DNA of 37,125 nucleotides. It comes from Escherichia phage T7. This document shows positions 1 to 37,125 of the stretch, piece after piece. The notes below the pieces were generated by a model, which searched no databases, had not been told where the DNA came from, and was given only the letters and a program-made list of their open reading frames with translations. Both the position numbers and the translations under genes were made by a program. The stretch lies in sequence record MZ375281.1. One strand, 5' to 3'. The number at the start of each line of letters is the position of its first letter. Positions within the stretch are counted from its first letter, which is position 1.

Positions 1-142
1 TCTCACAGTGTACGGACCTAAAGTTCCCCCCATAGGGTGTACCTAAAGCCCAGCCAATCACCTAAAGTCAACCTTCGGTTGACCTTGAGGGTTCCCTAAG
101 GGTTTGTCTTTGGGTGTACCTTGAGTGTCTCTCTGTGTCCCT
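1..142. repeat. Left direct terminal repeat (identical copy at 36984-37125)
   Basis: Bases 1-142 match 36984-37125 exactly; begins TCTCACAGTGTACGG as in T7 terminal redundancy. Confidence 0.95.
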
Positions 143-330
143 CTCTGTTACAGTCTCCTAAAGTATCCTCCTAAAGTCACCTCCTAACGTCCATCCTAAA
201 GCCAACACCTAAAGACCCATCAAGTCAACGCCTATCTTAAAGTTTAAACATAAAGACCAGACCTAAAGACCAGACCTAAAGACACTACATAAAGACCAGA
301 CCTAAAGACGCCTTGTTGTTAGCCATAAAG
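143..330. repeat. Left-end array of short CCTAAAG/ACCTAAAGAC-type repeats (concatemer processing/packaging region)
   Basis: Multiple tandem-like cctaaag / agaccagacctaaag units visible. Confidence 0.7.
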
Positions 331-1247: not shown

Positions 1248-1291
1248 TGTCTACTACCAACGTGCAATACGGTCTGACCGCTATCTCATAA
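1247..1291 (+). pseudogene. 0.4: Remnant of gene 0.4 (14 codons, [14 protein letters not shown]); genes 0.4-0.6 absent
   Basis: ATG overlaps 0.3 stop (TAATG); ORF stops after 14 codons and sequence resumes just upstream of 0.7. Confidence 0.6.
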
Positions 1292-2463: not shown

Positions 2464-5115
2464 ATGAACACGATTAACATCGCTAAGAACGACTTCTCTG
2501 ACATCGAACTGGCTGCTATCCCGTTCAACACTCTGGCTGACCATTACGGTGAGCGTTTAGCTCGCGAACAGTTGGCCCTTGAGCATGAGTCTTACGAGAT
2601 GGGTGAAGCACGCTTCCGCAAGATGTTTGAGCGTCAACTTAAAGCTGGTGAGGTTGCGGATAACGCTGCCGCCAAGCCTCTCATCACTACCCTACTCCCT
2701 AAGATGATTGCACGCATCAACGACTGGTTTGAGGAAGTGAAAGCTAAGCGTGGCAAGCGCCCGACAGCCTTCCAGTTCCTGCAAGAAATCAAGCCGGAAG
2801 CCGTAGCGTACATCACCATTAAGACCACTCTGGCTTGCCTAACCAGTGCTGACAATACAACCGTTCAGGCTGCAGCAAGCGCAATCGGTCGGGCCATTGA
2901 GGACGAGGCTCGCTTCGGTCGTATCCGTGACCTTGAAGCTAAGCACTTCAAGAAAAACGTTGAGGAACAACTCAACAAGCGCGTAGGGCACGTCTACAAG
3001 AAAGCATTTATGCGAGTTGTCGAGGCTGACATGCTCTCTAAGGGTCTACTCGGTGGCGAGGCGTGGTCTTCGTGGCATAAGGAAGACTCTATTCATGTAG
3101 GAGTACGCTGCATCGAGATGCTCATTGAGTCAACCGGAATGGTTAGCTTACACCGCCAAAATGCTGGCGTAGTAGGTCAAGACTCTGAGACTATCGAACT
3201 CGCACCTGAATACGCTGAGGCTATCGCAACCCGTGCAGGTGCGCTGGCTGGCATCTCTCCGATGTTCCAACCTTGCGTAGTTCCTCCTAAGCCGTGGACT
3301 GGCATTACTGGTGGTGGCTATTGGGCTAACGGTCGTCGTCCTCTGGCGCTGGTGCGTACTCACAGTAAGAAAGCACTGATGCGCTACGAAGACGTTTACA
3401 TGCCTGAGGTGTACAAAGCGATTAACATTGCGCAAAACACCGCATGGAAAATCAACAAGAAAGTCCTAGCGGTCGCCAACGTAATCACCAAGTGGAAGCA
3501 TTGTCCGGTCGAGGACATCCCTGCGATTGAGCGTGAAGAACTCCCGATGAAACCGGAAGACATCGACATGAATCCTGAGGCTCTCACCGCGTGGAAACGT
3601 GCTGCCGCTGCTGTGTACCGCAAGGACAAGGCTCGCAAGTCTCGCCGTATCAGCCTTGAGTTCATGCTTGAGCAAGCCAATAAGTTTGCTAACCATAAGG
3701 CCATCTGGTTCCCTTACAACATGGACTGGCGCGGTCGTGTTTACGCTGTGTCAATGTTCAACCCGCAAGGTAACGATATGACCAAAGGACTGCTTACGCT
3801 GGCGAAAGGTAAACCAATCGGTAAGGAAGGTTACTACTGGCTGAAAATCCACGGTGCAAACTGTGCGGGTGTCGATAAGGTTCCGTTCCCTGAGCGCATC
3901 AAGTTCATTGAGGAAAACCACGAGAACATCATGGCTTGCGCTAAGTCTCCACTGGAGAACACTTGGTGGGCTGAGCAAGATTCTCCGTTCTGCTTCCTTG
4001 CGTTCTGCTTTGAGTACGCTGGGGTACAGCACCACGGCCTGAGCTATAACTGCTCCCTTCCGCTGGCGTTTGACGGGTCTTGCTCTGGCATCCAGCACTT
4101 CTCCGCGATGCTCCGAGATGAGGTAGGTGGTCGCGCGGTTAACTTGCTTCCTAGTGAAACCGTTCAGGACATCTACGGGATTGTTGCTAAGAAAGTCAAC
4201 GAGATTCTACAAGCAGACGCAATCAATGGGACCGATAACGAAGTAGTTACCGTGACCGATGAGAACACTGGTGAAATCTCTGAGAAAGTCAAGCTGGGCA
4301 CTAAGGCACTGGCTGGTCAATGGCTGGCTTACGGTGTTACTCGCAGTGTGACTAAGCGTTCAGTCATGACGCTGGCTTACGGGTCCAAAGAGTTCGGCTT
4401 CCGTCAACAAGTGCTGGAAGATACCATTCAGCCAGCTATTGATTCCGGCAAGGGTCTGATGTTCACTCAGCCGAATCAGGCTGCTGGATACATGGCTAAG
4501 CTGATTTGGGAATCTGTGAGCGTGACGGTGGTAGCTGCGGTTGAAGCAATGAACTGGCTTAAGTCTGCTGCTAAGCTGCTGGCTGCTGAGGTCAAAGATA
4601 AGAAGACTGGAGAGATTCTTCGCAAGCGTTGCGCTGTGCATTGGGTAACTCCTGATGGTTTCCCTGTGTGGCAGGAATACAAGAAGCCTATTCAGACGCG
4701 CTTGAACCTGATGTTCCTCGGTCAGTTCCGCTTACAGCCTACCATTAACACCAACAAAGATAGCGAGATTGATGCACACAAACAGGAGTCTGGTATCGCT
4801 CCTAACTTTGTACACAGCCAAGACGGTAGCCACCTTCGTAAGACTGTAGTGTGGGCACACGAGAAGTACGGAATCGAATCTTTTGCACTGATTCACGACT
4901 CCTTCGGTACCATTCCGGCTGACGCTGCGAACCTGTTCAAAGCAGTGCGCGAAACTATGGTTGACACATATGAGTCTTGTGATGTACTGGCTGATTTCTA
5001 CGACCAGTTCGCTGACCAGTTGCACGAGTCTCAATTGGACAAAATGCCAGCACTTCCGGCTAAAGGTAACTTGAACCTCCGTGACATCTTAGAGTCGGAC
5101 TTCGCGTTCGCGTAA
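2464..5115 (+). CDS. 1: T7 RNA polymerase (gp1)
   Basis: 883-aa ORF starting MNTINIAKNDFSDIELAAIPFNTLADHYG, ending DFAFA. Confidence 0.99.
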   Translation: MNTINIAKNDFSDIELAAIPFNTLADHYGERLAREQLALEHESYEMGEARFRKMFERQLKAGEVADNAAAKPLITTLLPKMIARINDWFEEVKAKRGKRPTAFQFLQEIKPEAVAYITIKTTLACLTSADNTTVQAAASAIGRAIEDEARFGRIRDLEAKHFKKNVEEQLNKRVGHVYKKAFMRVVEADMLSKGLLGGEAWSSWHKEDSIHVGVRCIEMLIESTGMVSLHRQNAGVVGQDSETIELAPEYAEAIATRAGALAGISPMFQPCVVPPKPWTGITGGGYWANGRRPLALVRTHSKKALMRYEDVYMPEVYKAINIAQNTAWKINKKVLAVANVITKWKHCPVEDIPAIEREELPMKPEDIDMNPEALTAWKRAAAAVYRKDKARKSRRISLEFMLEQANKFANHKAIWFPYNMDWRGRVYAVSMFNPQGNDMTKGLLTLAKGKPIGKEGYYWLKIHGANCAGVDKVPFPERIKFIEENHENIMACAKSPLENTWWAEQDSPFCFLAFCFEYAGVQHHGLSYNCSLPLAFDGSCSGIQHFSAMLRDEVGGRAVNLLPSETVQDIYGIVAKKVNEILQADAINGTDNEVVTVTDENTGEISEKVKLGTKALAGQWLAYGVTRSVTKRSVMTLAYGSKEFGFRQQVLEDTIQPAIDSGKGLMFTQPNQAAGYMAKLIWESVSVTVVAAVEAMNWLKSAAKLLAAEVKDKKTGEILRKRCAVHWVTPDGFPVWQEYKKPIQTRLNLMFLGQFRLQPTINTNKDSEIDAHKQESGIAPNFVHSQDGSHLRKTVVWAHEKYGIESFALIHDSFGTIPADAANLFKAVRETMVDTYESCDVLADFYDQFADQLHESQLDKMPALPAKGNLNLRDILESDFAFA

Positions 5116-6852: not shown

Positions 6853-6886
6853 CTGGCTCACCTTCGGGTGGGCCTTTCTGCGTTTA
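6853..6886 (+). terminator. Early terminator TE (host RNAP, rho-independent)
   Basis: GC hairpin ggctcaccttcgggtgggcc followed by tttctgcgttt. Confidence 0.85.
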
Positions 6887-6897
6887 TAAGGAGACAC

Positions 6898-6920
6898 TTT
6901 TACGACTCACTAAAGGAGGT
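6898..6920 (+). promoter_or_regulatory. T7 promoter phi1.5 with altered upstream edge (TTT at -17 to -15)
   Basis: TTTTACGACTCACTAAAGGAGGT, +1 at 6915. Confidence 0.7.
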
Positions 6921-6927
6921 ACACACC

Positions 6928-7017
6928 ATGATGTACTTAATGCCATTACTCATCGTCATTGTAGGATGCCTTGCGCTCCACTGTAGCGATTATGATATGC
7001 CAGATGGTCACGCTTAA
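6928..7017 (+). CDS. 1.5: gp1.5 (29 aa)
   Basis: MMYLMPLLIVIVGCLALHCSDYDMPDGHA; stop is the TAA of phi1.6. Confidence 0.7.
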   Translation: MMYLMPLLIVIVGCLALHCSDYDMPDGHA

Positions 7018-7037
7018 TACGACTCACTAAAGGAGAC
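7015..7037 (+). promoter_or_regulatory. T7 promoter phi1.6
   Basis: TAATACGACTCACTAAAGGAGAC, +1 at 7032. Confidence 0.9.
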
Positions 7038-7303: not shown

Positions 7304-7349
7304 TGGGACTGTTAGATGGTGAAGCCTGGGAAACATAAGGATAAATGTT

Positions 7350-7357: not shown

Positions 7358-7690
<333 letters not shown>

Positions 7691-7693
<3 letters not shown>

Positions 7694-7713
7694 TACGACT
7701 CACTATTAGGGAA
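7691..7713 (+). promoter_or_regulatory. T7 promoter phi2.5 (initiates with A)
   Basis: TAATACGACTCACTATTAGGGAA, +1 A at 7708. Confidence 0.9.
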
Positions 7714-7758
7714 GACTCCCTCTGAGAAACCAAACGAAACCTAAAGGAGATTAACATT

Positions 7759-8337
7759 ATGGCTAAGAAGATTTTCACCTCTGCGCTGGGTACCGCTGAA
7801 CCTTACGCTTACATCACCAAGCCGGACTACGGCAACGAAGAGCGTGGCTTTGGGAACCCTCGTGGTGTCTATAAAGTTGACCTGACTATTCCCAACAAAG
7901 ACCCGCGCTGCCAGCGTATGGTCGATGAAATCGTGAAGTGTCACGAAGAGGCTTATGCTGCTGCCGTTGAGGAATACGAAGCTAATCCACCTGCTGTAGC
8001 TCGTGGTAAGAAACCGCTGAAACCGTATGAGGGTGACATGCCGTTCTTCGATAACGGTGACGGTACGACTACCTTTAAGTTCAAATGCTACGCGTCTTTC
8101 CAAGACAAGAAGACCAAAGAGACCAAGCACATCAATCTGGTTGTGGTTGACTCAAAAGGTAAGAAGATGGAAGACGTTCCGATTATCGGTGGTGGCTCTA
8201 AGCTGAAAGTTAAATATTCTCTGGTTCCATACAAGTGGAACACTGCTGTAGGTGCGAGCGTTAAGCTGCAACTGGAATCCGTGATGCTGGTCGAACTGGC
8301 TACCTTTGGTGGCGGTGAAGACGATTGGGCTGACTAA
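7759..8337 (+). CDS. 2.5: ssDNA-binding protein gp2.5, truncated at codon 193 by in-frame TAA; 39 further in-frame codons (8338-8454) still encode the acidic tail ending DEDGDF
   Basis: 192-aa ORF MAKKIFTSALGTAEPYAYI...; TAA at 8335-8337; downstream frame VEENGYVAS...EEADEDGDF*. Confidence 0.9.
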   Translation: MAKKIFTSALGTAEPYAYITKPDYGNEERGFGNPRGVYKVDLTIPNKDPRCQRMVDEIVKCHEEAYAAAVEEYEANPPAVARGKKPLKPYEGDMPFFDNGDGTTTFKFKCYASFQDKKTKETKHINLVVVDSKGKKMEDVPIIGGGSKLKVKYSLVPYKWNTAVGASVKLQLESVMLVELATFGGGEDDWAD

Positions 8338-9762: not shown

Positions 9763-11632
<1,870 letters not shown>

Positions 11633-11655: not shown

Positions 11656-11694
11656 ACACCAAATTCTTTGAGTAATCAAACAGGAGAAACCATT

Positions 11695-16377: not shown

Positions 16378-16632
16378 ATGTTAACACCTATTAACCAATT
16401 ACTTAAGAACCCTAACGATATTCCAGATGTACCTCGTGCAACCGCTGAGTATCTACAGGTTCGATTCAACTATGCGTACCTCGAAGCGTCTGGTCATATA
16501 GGACTTATGCGTGCTAATGGTTGTAGTGAGGCCCACATCTTGGGTTTCATTCAGGGCCTACAGTATGCCTCTAACGTCATTGACGAGATTGAGTTACGCA
16601 AGGAACAACTAAGAGATGATGGGGAGGATTGA
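16378..16632 (+). CDS. 6.5: gp6.5
   Basis: 84-aa ORF. Confidence 0.9.
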
Positions 16633-19353: not shown

Positions 19354-20277
19354 ATGGCTGAATCTAATGCAGACGTATATGCATCTTTTGGCGTGAACTC
19401 CGCTGTGATGTCTGGTGGTTCCGTTGAGGAACATGAGCAGAACATGCTGGCTCTTGATGTTGCTGCCCGTGATGGCGATGATGCAATCGAGTTAGCGTCA
19501 GACGAAGTGGAAACAGAACGTGACCTGTATGACAACTCTGACCCGTTCGGTCAAGAGGATGACGAAGGCCGCATTCAGGTTCGTATCGGTGATGGCTCTG
19601 AGCCGACCGATGTGGACACTGGAGAAGAAGGCGTTGAGGGCACCGAAGGTTCCGAAGAGTTTACCCCACTGGGCGAGACTCCAGAAGAACTGGTAGCTGC
19701 CTCTGAGCAACTTGGTGAGCACGAAGAGGGCTTCCAAGAGATGATTAACATTGCTGCTGAGCGTGGCATGAGTGTCGAGACCATTGAGGCTATCCAGCGT
19801 GAGTACGAGGAGAACGAAGAGTTGTCCGCCGAGTCCTACGCTAAGCTGGCTGAAATTGGCTACACGAAGGCTTTCATTGACTCGTATATCCGTGGTCAAG
19901 AAGCTCTGGTGGAGCAGTACGTAAACAGTGTCATTGAGTACGCTGGTGGTCGTGAACGTTTTGATGCACTGTATAACCGCCTTGAGACGCACAACCCTGA
20001 GGCTGCACAGTCGCTGGATAATGCGTTGACCAATCGTGACTTAGCGACCGTTAAGGCTATCATCAACTTGGCTGGTGAGTCTCGCGCTAAGGCGTTCGGT
20101 CGTAAGCCAACTCGTAGTGTGACTAATCGTGCTATTCCGGCTAAACCTCAGGCTACCAAGCGTGAAGGCTTTGCGGACCGTAGCGAGATGATTAAAGCTA
20201 TGAGTGACCCTCGGTATCGCACAGATGCCAACTATCGTCGTCAAGTCGAACAGAAAGTAATCGATTCGAACTTCTGA
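19354..20277 (+). CDS. 9: Capsid assembly (scaffolding) protein gp9
   Basis: 307-aa acidic ORF. Confidence 0.97.
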   Translation: MAESNADVYASFGVNSAVMSGGSVEEHEQNMLALDVAARDGDDAIELASDEVETERDLYDNSDPFGQEDDEGRIQVRIGDGSEPTDVDTGEEGVEGTEGSEEFTPLGETPEELVAASEQLGEHEEGFQEMINIAAERGMSVETIEAIQREYEENEELSAESYAKLAEIGYTKAFIDSYIRGQEALVEQYVNSVIEYAGGRERFDALYNRLETHNPEAAQSLDNALTNRDLATVKAIINLAGESRAKAFGRKPTRSVTNRAIPAKPQATKREGFADRSEMIKAMSDPRYRTDANYRRQVEQKVIDSNF

Positions 20278-36792: not shown

Positions 36793-36840
36793 ATGTTCCG
36801 CTTATTGTTGAACCTACTGCGGCATAGAGTCAAGTCCTAA
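36793..36840 (+). pseudogene. 19.5: Remnant of gene 19.5 (MFRLLLNLLRHRVKS*)
   Basis: ATG after gggaggagactc; ORF stops after 15 codons. Confidence 0.55.
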
Positions 36841-36983: not shown

Positions 36984-37125
36984 TCTCACAGTGTACGGAC
37001 CTAAAGTTCCCCCCATAGGGTGTACCTAAAGCCCAGCCAATCACCTAAAGTCAACCTTCGGTTGACCTTGAGGGTTCCCTAAGGGTTTGTCTTTGGGTGT
37101 ACCTTGAGTGTCTCTCTGTGTCCCT
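36984..37125. repeat. Right direct terminal repeat
   Basis: Identical to bases 1-142. Confidence 0.95.

What the first reader, a model, noticed from the sequence alone, without database searches (positions are those of the whole stretch)
6883..6920. Gene 1.4 absent from start to stop codon, leaving phi1.5 with TTT at -17 to -15
After the TE terminator the former 1.4 RBS (ataaggagacacttt) runs directly into TACGACTCACTAAAGGAGG. In T7 the gene 1.4 stop codon TAA supplies the first three bases of phi1.5, so a precise ORF deletion leaves TTTTACGACTCACTAAAGG. The AT-rich -17 to -13 element is altered at -16 and -15, which may weaken phi1.5.
Basis: partly seen in the sequence, partly recalled or inferred. 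Interest (0 to 1): 0.45.

Follow-up and report, generated by a model that had tools for sequence, protein, structure and literature searches.

The report
Engineered T7 gene 1.4 deletion scar
The window is a laboratory genome-reduced phage T7 in which gene 1.4 was cut out exactly from start to stop codon by a published CRISPR method, which clipped three bases off the neighbouring phi1.5 promoter; this is real but already deposited and probably of little consequence.

Summary
Compared with T7 reference NC_001604, the window lacks exactly bases 7608-7763. That is gene 1.4 from ATG to TAA, 156 bp, with no microhomology at the junction (window 6900|6901). The TAA stop is also positions -17 to -15 of promoter phi1.5. 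The promoter (+1 at window 6915) therefore reads TTTTACGACTCACTAAAGGAGGT instead of TAATACG...

This is not natural variation. The window is a complete genome of a "CiPGr" genome-reduced T7 (Yuan et al. 2022, NAR). In that work, 50-bp homology templates were designed to delete whole genes. Clones from transfers 10 and 20 still carry gene 1.4. The clone from transfer 30 and 63 GenBank records in all carry the identical junction.

Forty natural T7 relatives also lack gene 1.4, but they keep an intact TAATA directly after the TE terminator.

Published in vitro data give about 68% activity for -16 A>T and for -15 A>T singly, and about 50% for another A/T-preserving double change. I therefore infer a roughly two-fold weaker but working phi1.5. 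The effect should be buffered by intact phi1.6 117 bp downstream and, from general T7 knowledge, by read-through from phi1.1A/1.1B/1.3. Promoter strength was not measured here. Interest is low because the sequence is already known.

The parts
6855..6885 (+). Early terminator TE: 8-bp GC-rich hairpin with UUCG loop (6855-6874) plus U-rich tail, unchanged from T7
   Evidence: Ref annotation places terminator TE at 7588, which is window 6881. RNA fold gives -18.3 kcal/mol, z = -3.2. Sequence is identical to the reference.
6887..6900 (+). Orphan ribosome-binding site and leader of the deleted gene 1.4 (TAAGGAGACACTTT), now with no start codon after it
   Evidence: In the reference this sequence is followed by the ATG of gene 1.4 at 7608.
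6900..6901 (.). Deletion junction: ref 7608-7763 (gene 1.4, ATG through TAA, 156 bp) is missing between these two bases, with zero microhomology
   Evidence: The identical junction is present in 63 GenBank 'Mutant Escherichia phage T7 clone' records.
6898..6920 (+). Phi1.5 class II T7 RNA polymerase promoter variant, -17..+6, +1 at 6915. It reads TTTTA at -17..-13 instead of TAATA, and the -22..-18 flank is changed from ACTGG to GACAC
   Evidence: promoter table; ref +1 at 7778.
6928..7017 (+). Gene 1.5 (29 aa), the only gene lying between phi1.5 and phi1.6. It carries D22Y in this clone
7015..7037 (+). Phi1.6 promoter, intact (TAATACGACTCACTAAAGGAGAC, +1 at 7032), 117 bp downstream of phi1.5. 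Its -17..-15 is the TAA stop codon of gene 1.5

Best explanation
The site is the scar of a designed whole-gene deletion. [quoted passage not shown] In that method, host cells carry Cas9 and a plasmid with a spacer against a phage gene plus a 2 x 50-bp recombination template. The 'cassette-gene' templates join the sequences flanking the gene. For gene 1.4 the deleted interval equals the annotated CDS (ATG..TAA). In T7, the TAA of gene 1.4 is also -17..-15 of phi1.5, so the deletion replaced TAA with the TTT that preceded the ATG. Cas9 keeps cutting 1.4-positive genomes, so the deletion spread and stayed fixed. Inferred consequence: phi1.5 keeps its specificity region (-12..-5) and initiation region (-4..+6). 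Its upstream element is still entirely A/T. It should therefore still fire, at roughly half its normal strength. The phenotype should be minimal. Only the 29-codon gene 1.5 depends uniquely on phi1.5. Phi1.6 is intact, and T7 RNA polymerase also reads in from phi1.1A, phi1.1B and phi1.3. Gene 1.4 itself is naturally absent from many T7 relatives. Shown here: the deletion, its exactness, its origin and its fixation. Inferred: promoter strength and lack of phenotype.
For: Exact CDS-to-CDS boundaries with zero microhomology. Other deletions in the same genome also start exactly at a start codon: 5.3 at 16483 and 7.7 at 19848. In contrast, the undesigned 0.4-0.6 and 19.5 deletions have 9-nt microhomologies. 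Nearest records are 'Mutant Escherichia phage T7 clone T7_nnnL', whose names match the CiPGr paper (T7_300L). [quoted passage not shown] T7_10L and T7_20L retain gene 1.4. T7_30L and 63 records in all share the junction at 36/36 identity. The junction is absent from IMG/VR and JGI metagenome contigs. Promoter strength comes from the Komura et al. 2018 S2 file. Wild type averages 169. -16 A>T gives 114.5 and -15 A>T gives 115.7. The A/T-preserving double ATATA gives 83.7. G at -16 gives 22-26 and G at -15 gives 6-7. Natural phi4.7 already has T at -16. No change at the promoter appears in any of the 63 descendants, although other promoters (phi10, phiOL) did mutate in this line. Forty natural relatives lack gene 1.4.
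Against: The cassette sequences are in supplementary tables that are not held, so the gene 1.4 template was not checked directly. The paper's main text never mentions gene 1.4. The exact -16T/-15T double mutant was not found in any data I could read, so the half-strength estimate assumes rough independence. GGG at -17..-15 reduces activity about 360-fold, which shows the element can matter a great deal. A at -15 is invariant in all 17 T7 promoters and in 137 natural sites sampled, and TTTTA was never seen. This hints at stronger constraint in vivo than the in vitro 68% suggests. The -22..-18 flank also changed, with unknown effect.
Confidence: 0.9

Rival explanations
1. The deletion is a spontaneous or natural polymorphism (a recombination or CRISPR-escape deletion), not a designed edit.
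For: Gene 1.4 is naturally absent in 40 Teseptimavirus records. CiPGr lines also accumulate undesigned deletions, and two such are present in this window.
Against: The natural 1.4-less genomes have a different junction: GCGTTTAATACGACTC, with the RBS gone and TAATA intact. The window's junction has zero microhomology and coincides with both CDS ends. The undesigned deletions in the same genome use 9-nt repeats. The junction is found only in the CiPGr series and nowhere in IMG/VR or JGI metagenomes. Early clones of the same experiment still have the gene.
Confidence: 0.03
2. The TTT change effectively kills phi1.5, so transcription of gene 1.5 and downstream genes relies wholly on read-through and on phi1.6.
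For: A at -15 is invariant in natural T7-type promoters: 17/17 in T7 and 137/137 sampled sites, with zero TTTTA in all of IMG/VR. GGG at -17..-15 in the same -2A context gives 0.3% activity. Class II promoters are already weaker than consensus. The upstream flank also changed.
Against: Both A>T single changes retain 68% activity and an A/T-preserving double retains 50%. The element is read as A/T-rich DNA by the AT-rich recognition loop (minor-groove read-out is established knowledge from the Cheetham et al. 1999 structure). A>T transversions are therefore the mildest changes. Natural phi4.7 (CTATT) works with T at -16.
Confidence: 0.12
3. The gene 1.4 loss or the weakened phi1.5 was positively selected for growth advantage, rather than simply enforced by Cas9.
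For: It appeared by transfer 30 and is present unchanged in all 63 records with the junction, up to transfer 300. The paper reports some mutants with higher infectious efficiency.
Against: Continuous Cas9 counter-selection against 1.4-positive genomes in library cells is sufficient to explain fixation. All sampled clones may descend from one lineage, so persistence is one event and not many. The paper's main text makes no statement about gene 1.4.
Confidence: 0.08

Closest known systems
CiPGr genome-reduced T7 clones (GenBank MZ375237-MZ375294 and OL9647xx; e.g. T7_280L MZ375287, T7_190L MZ375269), Yuan et al. 2022 NAR
   Same: Identical gene 1.4 junction at 36/36 bases in 63 records. T7_280L has the same set of eight deletions and the same length of 37125 bp.
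   Different: The window is not identical to any held record. It differs from T7_280L by 35 mismatches and 32 gap positions. It is probably the sibling MZ375281, which is missing from the collection.
Natural T7 relatives without gene 1.4 (Yersinia phage phiA1122, Escherichia phage 13a, IME390, PGX1, C5 and others)
   Same: No gene 1.4. Phi1.5 lies just after the TE terminator, followed by gene 1.5.
   Different: In these phages the TE tail runs straight into an intact TAATACGACTCACTAAAGGAGG. There is no orphan RBS and no change at -16/-15. The window keeps 15 extra bases and has TTTTA.
Recombinant T7-B / T7-B-GJ (PV223880, PV223882)
   Same: 156-bp gene 1.4 deletion and the same gene 1.7 deletion in an engineered T7.
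   Different: Both junctions are shifted by +1 nt (ref 7609-7764 deleted). Phi1.5 therefore reads TTTAA at -17..-13, which is three changes instead of two.
Natural T7 promoter phi4.7 (CTATT at -17..-13)
   Same: A functional T7 class II promoter that departs from TAATA in the upstream A/T element and has T at -16.
   Different: It keeps A at -15. No natural T7-type promoter sampled has T at -15.

Membership tests
T7 RNA polymerase promoter (23-bp, -17..+6; class II) | Specificity region -12..-5 (CGACTCAC, including -11G, -9C, -8T, -7C) | tested here: met
   Identical to reference phi1.5.
T7 RNA polymerase promoter (23-bp, -17..+6; class II) | Unwinding/initiation region -4..+6 with G at +1 (TAAA GGAGGT for phi1.5) | tested here: met
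   Identical to the reference, with +1 G at window 6915.
T7 RNA polymerase promoter (23-bp, -17..+6; class II) | Upstream A/T-rich element -17..-13 with consensus TAATA | tested here: inconclusive
   The element is TTTTA: 3 of 5 bases match the consensus and 5 of 5 are A/T. Natural T7 promoters tolerate CAATA, CAATC, CTATT and TAATT, but none has T at -15.
T7 RNA polymerase promoter (23-bp, -17..+6; class II) | Transcription actually initiates there with T7 RNA polymerase | not testable with these tools
   Only proxies are available: single mutants at 68% each and an A/T-preserving double at 50% in Komura et al. 2018.
CiPGr 'cassette-gene' designed deletion | Deleted interval follows the annotated gene boundaries and shows no repeat-mediated junction | tested here: met
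   Ref 7608-7763 equals the gene 1.4 CDS, with 0-nt microhomology.
CiPGr 'cassette-gene' designed deletion | Parent and early clones carry the gene; later clones of the same experiment share one identical junction | tested here: met
   T7_10L and T7_20L have gene 1.4. T7_30L onwards, 63 records in all, share the junction.
CiPGr 'cassette-gene' designed deletion | Junction equals the synthesized 100-bp homology template for that gene | not testable with these tools
   The paper's supplementary tables are not held.
Natural gene-1.4-less Teseptimavirus arrangement | TE tail joined directly to an intact TAATACGACTC (GCGTTTAATACGACTC) | tested here: not met
   The window has GCGTTTATAAGGAGACACTTTTACGACTC.

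The most novel reading that the evidence does not exclude
The scar is an unplanned long-term in vivo test of the phi1.5 upstream element. The -16T/-15T combination was not found in any natural T7-type promoter searched. It persisted with no reversion or compensation in clones sampled over about 270 serial transfers, while other promoters in the same line mutated. If phi1.5-TTTTA proved strongly impaired, this would show that phi1.5 is dispensable for T7 growth. If it proved fully active, it would show that the strict natural conservation of A at -15 is not needed for function.
Probability: 0.15. Interest if true: 0.3.

Novelty: already known. Interest (0 to 1): 0.1.

Why it matters
Its value is mainly as a caution for phage genome design. 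In T7, the TAA stop codon of the upstream gene supplies -17..-15 of seven of the 17 phage promoters: 1.2/phi1.3, 1.4/phi1.5, 1.5/phi1.6, 2/phi2.5, 4.2/phi4.3, 8/phi9 and 16/phi17. Any pipeline that deletes genes by CDS coordinates will therefore clip a promoter at these sites. Nature's own 1.4-less genomes show the clean alternative, which keeps TAATA. For anyone using these reduced T7 chassis, phi1.5 is a non-consensus promoter of unmeasured strength. The finding says nothing new about phage biology.

Tried and rejected
1. Searching papers for the accession numbers (MZ375237, MZ375233, OL964739, PV223880/2) found nothing. The source paper was found through its clone naming and method instead.

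2. Supplements of the CiPGr paper and of the 2026 T7 Promoter Calculator preprint are not held. The preprint measured all 1- and 2-bp variants. As a result, neither the gene 1.4 cassette nor the exact -16T/-15T measurement could be read.

3. The -16T/-15T double, in either -2T or -2A context, is absent from the held part of Komura's S2 file. Only multiply mutated TTTTACGACTC variants are present there, and they are uninformative.

4. The simple terminator scan did not call TE, because its T-run is interrupted. I used the reference annotation and an RNA fold instead.

5. I considered that the window is MZ375287, which has the same length. I rejected this because of 35 mismatches and 32 gap positions.

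6. The PhageMaP T7 essentiality preprint does not mention gene 1.4 in its text.

7. I considered a new ORF created by the junction. GTG at 6868 is in frame with gene 1.5. It lies inside the terminator stem with no ribosome-binding site, so I did not pursue it.

8. gp1.4 matches only families of unknown function (DUF5464, phrog_17655). This gives no functional lead on what was lost.

Full report
**What is in the sequence**

The window begins and ends with the T7 terminal repeat and is a complete 37,125-bp T7-type genome. A blastn comparison with T7 reference NC_001604 (39,937 bp) shows colinear blocks at 99.7-99.9% identity, apart from the indel-bearing terminal segments (about 96-97%), separated by eight deletions.

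At the site in question, window ..6900 equals ref ..7607 and window 6901.. equals ref 7764... The missing 156 bp (ref 7608-7763) is exactly the annotated gene 1.4 CDS, from its ATG through its TAA. The bases at the two ends of the deleted piece share nothing with the retained flanks. There is therefore only one way to place the junction, and no microhomology.

The reference annotates the +1 of promoter phi1.5 at 7778, so -17..-15 is 7761-7763, which is the TAA stop of gene 1.4. In the window, +1 is 6915. The promoter reads TTTTA|CGACTCACTAAA|GGAGGT, against TAATA|CGACTCACTAAA|GGAGGT in the reference. The -22..-18 flank changes from ACTGG to GACAC.

The former gene 1.4 ribosome-binding site and leader, TAAGGAGACACTTT, remains at 6887-6900 with no start codon after it. 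The TE terminator hairpin (6855-6874, -18.3 kcal/mol) and its U-rich tail are unchanged.

**Where it comes from**

The closest records are a series titled "Mutant Escherichia phage T7 clone T7_nnnL". This naming matches Yuan et al. 2022 (NAR 50:13183, PMC9825161), which mentions T7_300L among others.

That paper describes CiPGr as follows:
- Host cells carry Cas9 and a plasmid library.
- Each 200-nt cassette holds a spacer and a 2 x 50-bp recombination template.
- Phage populations were passaged 300-600 times on library cells.

The paper also lists gp0.3-0.6 and gp19.5 as undesigned large deletions.

The window fits this description. The 1.4, 5.3 and 7.7 deletions begin exactly at the start codon and have no microhomology. 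The 0.4-0.6 and 19.5 deletions sit between 9-nt repeats.

Within the series, the timing is as follows:
- T7_10L (MZ375233, 39,938 bp) still has gene 1.4.
- T7_20L (MZ375235) still has gene 1.4.
- T7_30L (MZ375237) lacks it.

A 36-nt probe across the junction, which cannot match a 1.4-positive genome, hits 63 records. All are from this series (MZ3752xx and OL9647xx) and all match at 100%. The 30-nt junction is absent from IMG/VR and from JGI metagenome contigs.

The window shares all eight deletions and even the length of T7_280L (MZ375287). It differs from it by 35 mismatches and 32 gap positions. It is therefore a sibling clone, probably MZ375281, the one accession of the run that is missing from the collection.

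I could not read the cassette list itself because the supplement is not held. The paper's main text does not mention gene 1.4.

**What nature does instead**

Gene 1.4 encodes a 51-residue hydrophobic protein of unknown function (DUF5464, phrog_17655). Forty records of natural T7 relatives have no gene 1.4 at all. They include phiA1122, 13a, phage R, phage Y, C5, IME390, PGX1 and CICC 80001. In these genomes the TE tail runs directly into an intact promoter...CTTTCTGCGTTTAATACGACTCACTAAAGGAGG.

Loss of the gene is thus ordinary. What is peculiar to the engineered version is the 15-nt RBS remnant and the loss of TAA from the promoter.

A second engineered strain, T7-B (PV223880/PV223882), carries the same deletion shifted by one base. 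That leaves TTTAA at -17..-13.

**Likely effect on phi1.5 (inferred, not measured)**

Bases -17 to -13 are the part of the promoter assigned to the AT-rich recognition loop of T7 RNA polymerase. That this loop reads the minor groove is established knowledge from the 1999 Cheetham, Jeruzalmi and Steitz polymerase-promoter structure, and I did not check it here.

The barcoded in vitro data set of Komura et al. 2018 (PMC5937735, S2 file) gives the following activities:

| Variant | Activity |
|---|---|
| Consensus | mean 169 |
| -2 T>A (the class II form) | 138-161 |
| -16 A>T | 114.5 |
| -15 A>T | 115.7 |
| ATATA double (A/T-preserving) | 83.7 |
| -16 A>G | 22-26 |
| -15 A>G | 6-7 |
| GGG at -17..-15 with -2A | 0.41 |

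The element therefore matters, but A-to-T changes are the mildest possible. If the two changes act roughly independently, the double gives about 0.45 of normal phi1.5 activity.

The exact double mutant is not in the data I could read. A 2026 preprint that measured all one- and two-base variants states that -11, -9, -8 and -7 are the most sensitive positions. It also states that TAAT at -17 raises the rate and that the -22..-18 flank modulates it.

Against a purely mild reading stands natural conservation:
- A at -15 is invariant in all 17 T7 promoters, while -16 is T once, in phi4.7.
- Among 137 distinct T7-core sites in a capped IMG/VR sample, 133 are TAATA, 4 are TTATA and none has T at -15.
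- A dedicated scan of all IMG/VR for TTTTACGACTCACTAWAG found nothing.

I put about 0.6 on "functional at 30-70%", 0.12 on "essentially dead" and the rest on "near normal".

**Likely effect on the phage**

The effect is expected to be small, for four reasons:
- Only the 29-codon gene 1.5 lies between phi1.5 and the intact phi1.6 at +1 = 7032.
- From established knowledge of T7 transcription, genes to the right of TE are also reached by T7 polymerase that starts at phi1.1A, phi1.1B and phi1.3. All three are intact here.
- None of the 63 descendant genomes has any change in the 36 bases around the junction. Other promoters in this very genome did mutate: phi10 at -11 and +1, and phiOL at +1.
- Persistence of the deletion itself needs no fitness benefit, because Cas9 continually removes 1.4-positive genomes.

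**A general point**

In the T7 reference, the TAA stop of the preceding gene forms -17..-15 of seven of the 17 phage promoters: phi1.3, phi1.5, phi1.6, phi2.5, phi4.3, phi9 and phi17. Deleting any of those upstream genes by CDS coordinates would clip a promoter in the same way.

**Verdict**

It is an engineered scar in a published and deposited strain series, not a biological novelty. The promoter consequence is plausible, probably modest and untested. Interest is low.

Noticed in passing
window 8335 (ORF 7759-8337): Gene 2.5 (single-stranded DNA-binding protein) carries a nonsense change, E193*. This removes the last 40 residues, including the acidic C-terminal tail that is regarded (from general knowledge) as essential for T7 growth. 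A20T and S204P are also present. The stop is shared with sibling T7_280L. The CiPGr paper lists gp2.5 among unexpectedly disrupted genes. A possible compensating change in gene 5 (A8D, K404T) was not examined.
   Followed up: partly
window 20297, 20308, 20370: The strong class III promoter phi10 ahead of the major capsid gene is mutated at -11 (G>A, giving the phiOL-like core TAATACAACTC) and at +1 (G>T). There is also a T>C change immediately before the gene 10 ATG. T7_280L shares only the +1 change. This looks like stepwise retuning of capsid expression in the reduced genome.
   Followed up: partly
window 374: Promoter phiOL has +1 A>G, which makes its initiation region GGGAGA, like a class III promoter.
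   Followed up: no
window 2873, 3014 (gene 1, 2464-5115): T7 RNA polymerase carries V137A and Q184R, plus a synonymous change in codon R96. Whether these relate to the promoter changes was not tested.
   Followed up: no
window 6991: Gene 1.5 has D22Y (GAT>TAT). The change is shared with T7_190L, MZ375279 and MZ375280 but not with T7_280L, so it marks a sub-lineage.
   Followed up: partly
window 1-210 and 36984-37125: The terminal repeat and the adjacent left end differ from the reference by an 18-nt deletion (ref 99-116), a 13-nt deletion (ref 223-235) and several point changes or 1-nt indels. Some of these are mirrored in the right repeat.
   Followed up: no
window 1274-1282, 7327-7333, 9852-9854, 11659-11661, 14593/14594, 17620/17621, 36824-36832: There are seven further deletions relative to T7: 0.4-0.6 (676 bp, imperfect 9-nt repeat), 1.7 (536 bp), 3.8 (292 bp), 4.3 (198 bp), 5.3 (338 bp, from its ATG), 7.7 (369 bp, from its GTG) and 19.5 (189 bp, 9-nt repeat). 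The designed ones stop short of the next gene's ribosome-binding site.
   Followed up: yes
L003 (PV223880) 1225-1235 and 1640-1670: Another engineered strain, 'recombinant T7-B', has the same 1.4 and 1.7 deletions but with both junctions shifted by +1 nt. This is consistent with an off-by-one re-implementation, and it leaves phi1.5 with TTTAA at -17..-13.
   Followed up: partly
L002 (NC_001604) 6392, 7761, 7878, 9090, 13324, 21848, 34549: Seven of the 17 T7 promoters begin with the TAA stop codon of the preceding gene. Stop-codon/promoter overlap is a recurrent feature of T7 genome packing.
   Followed up: yes
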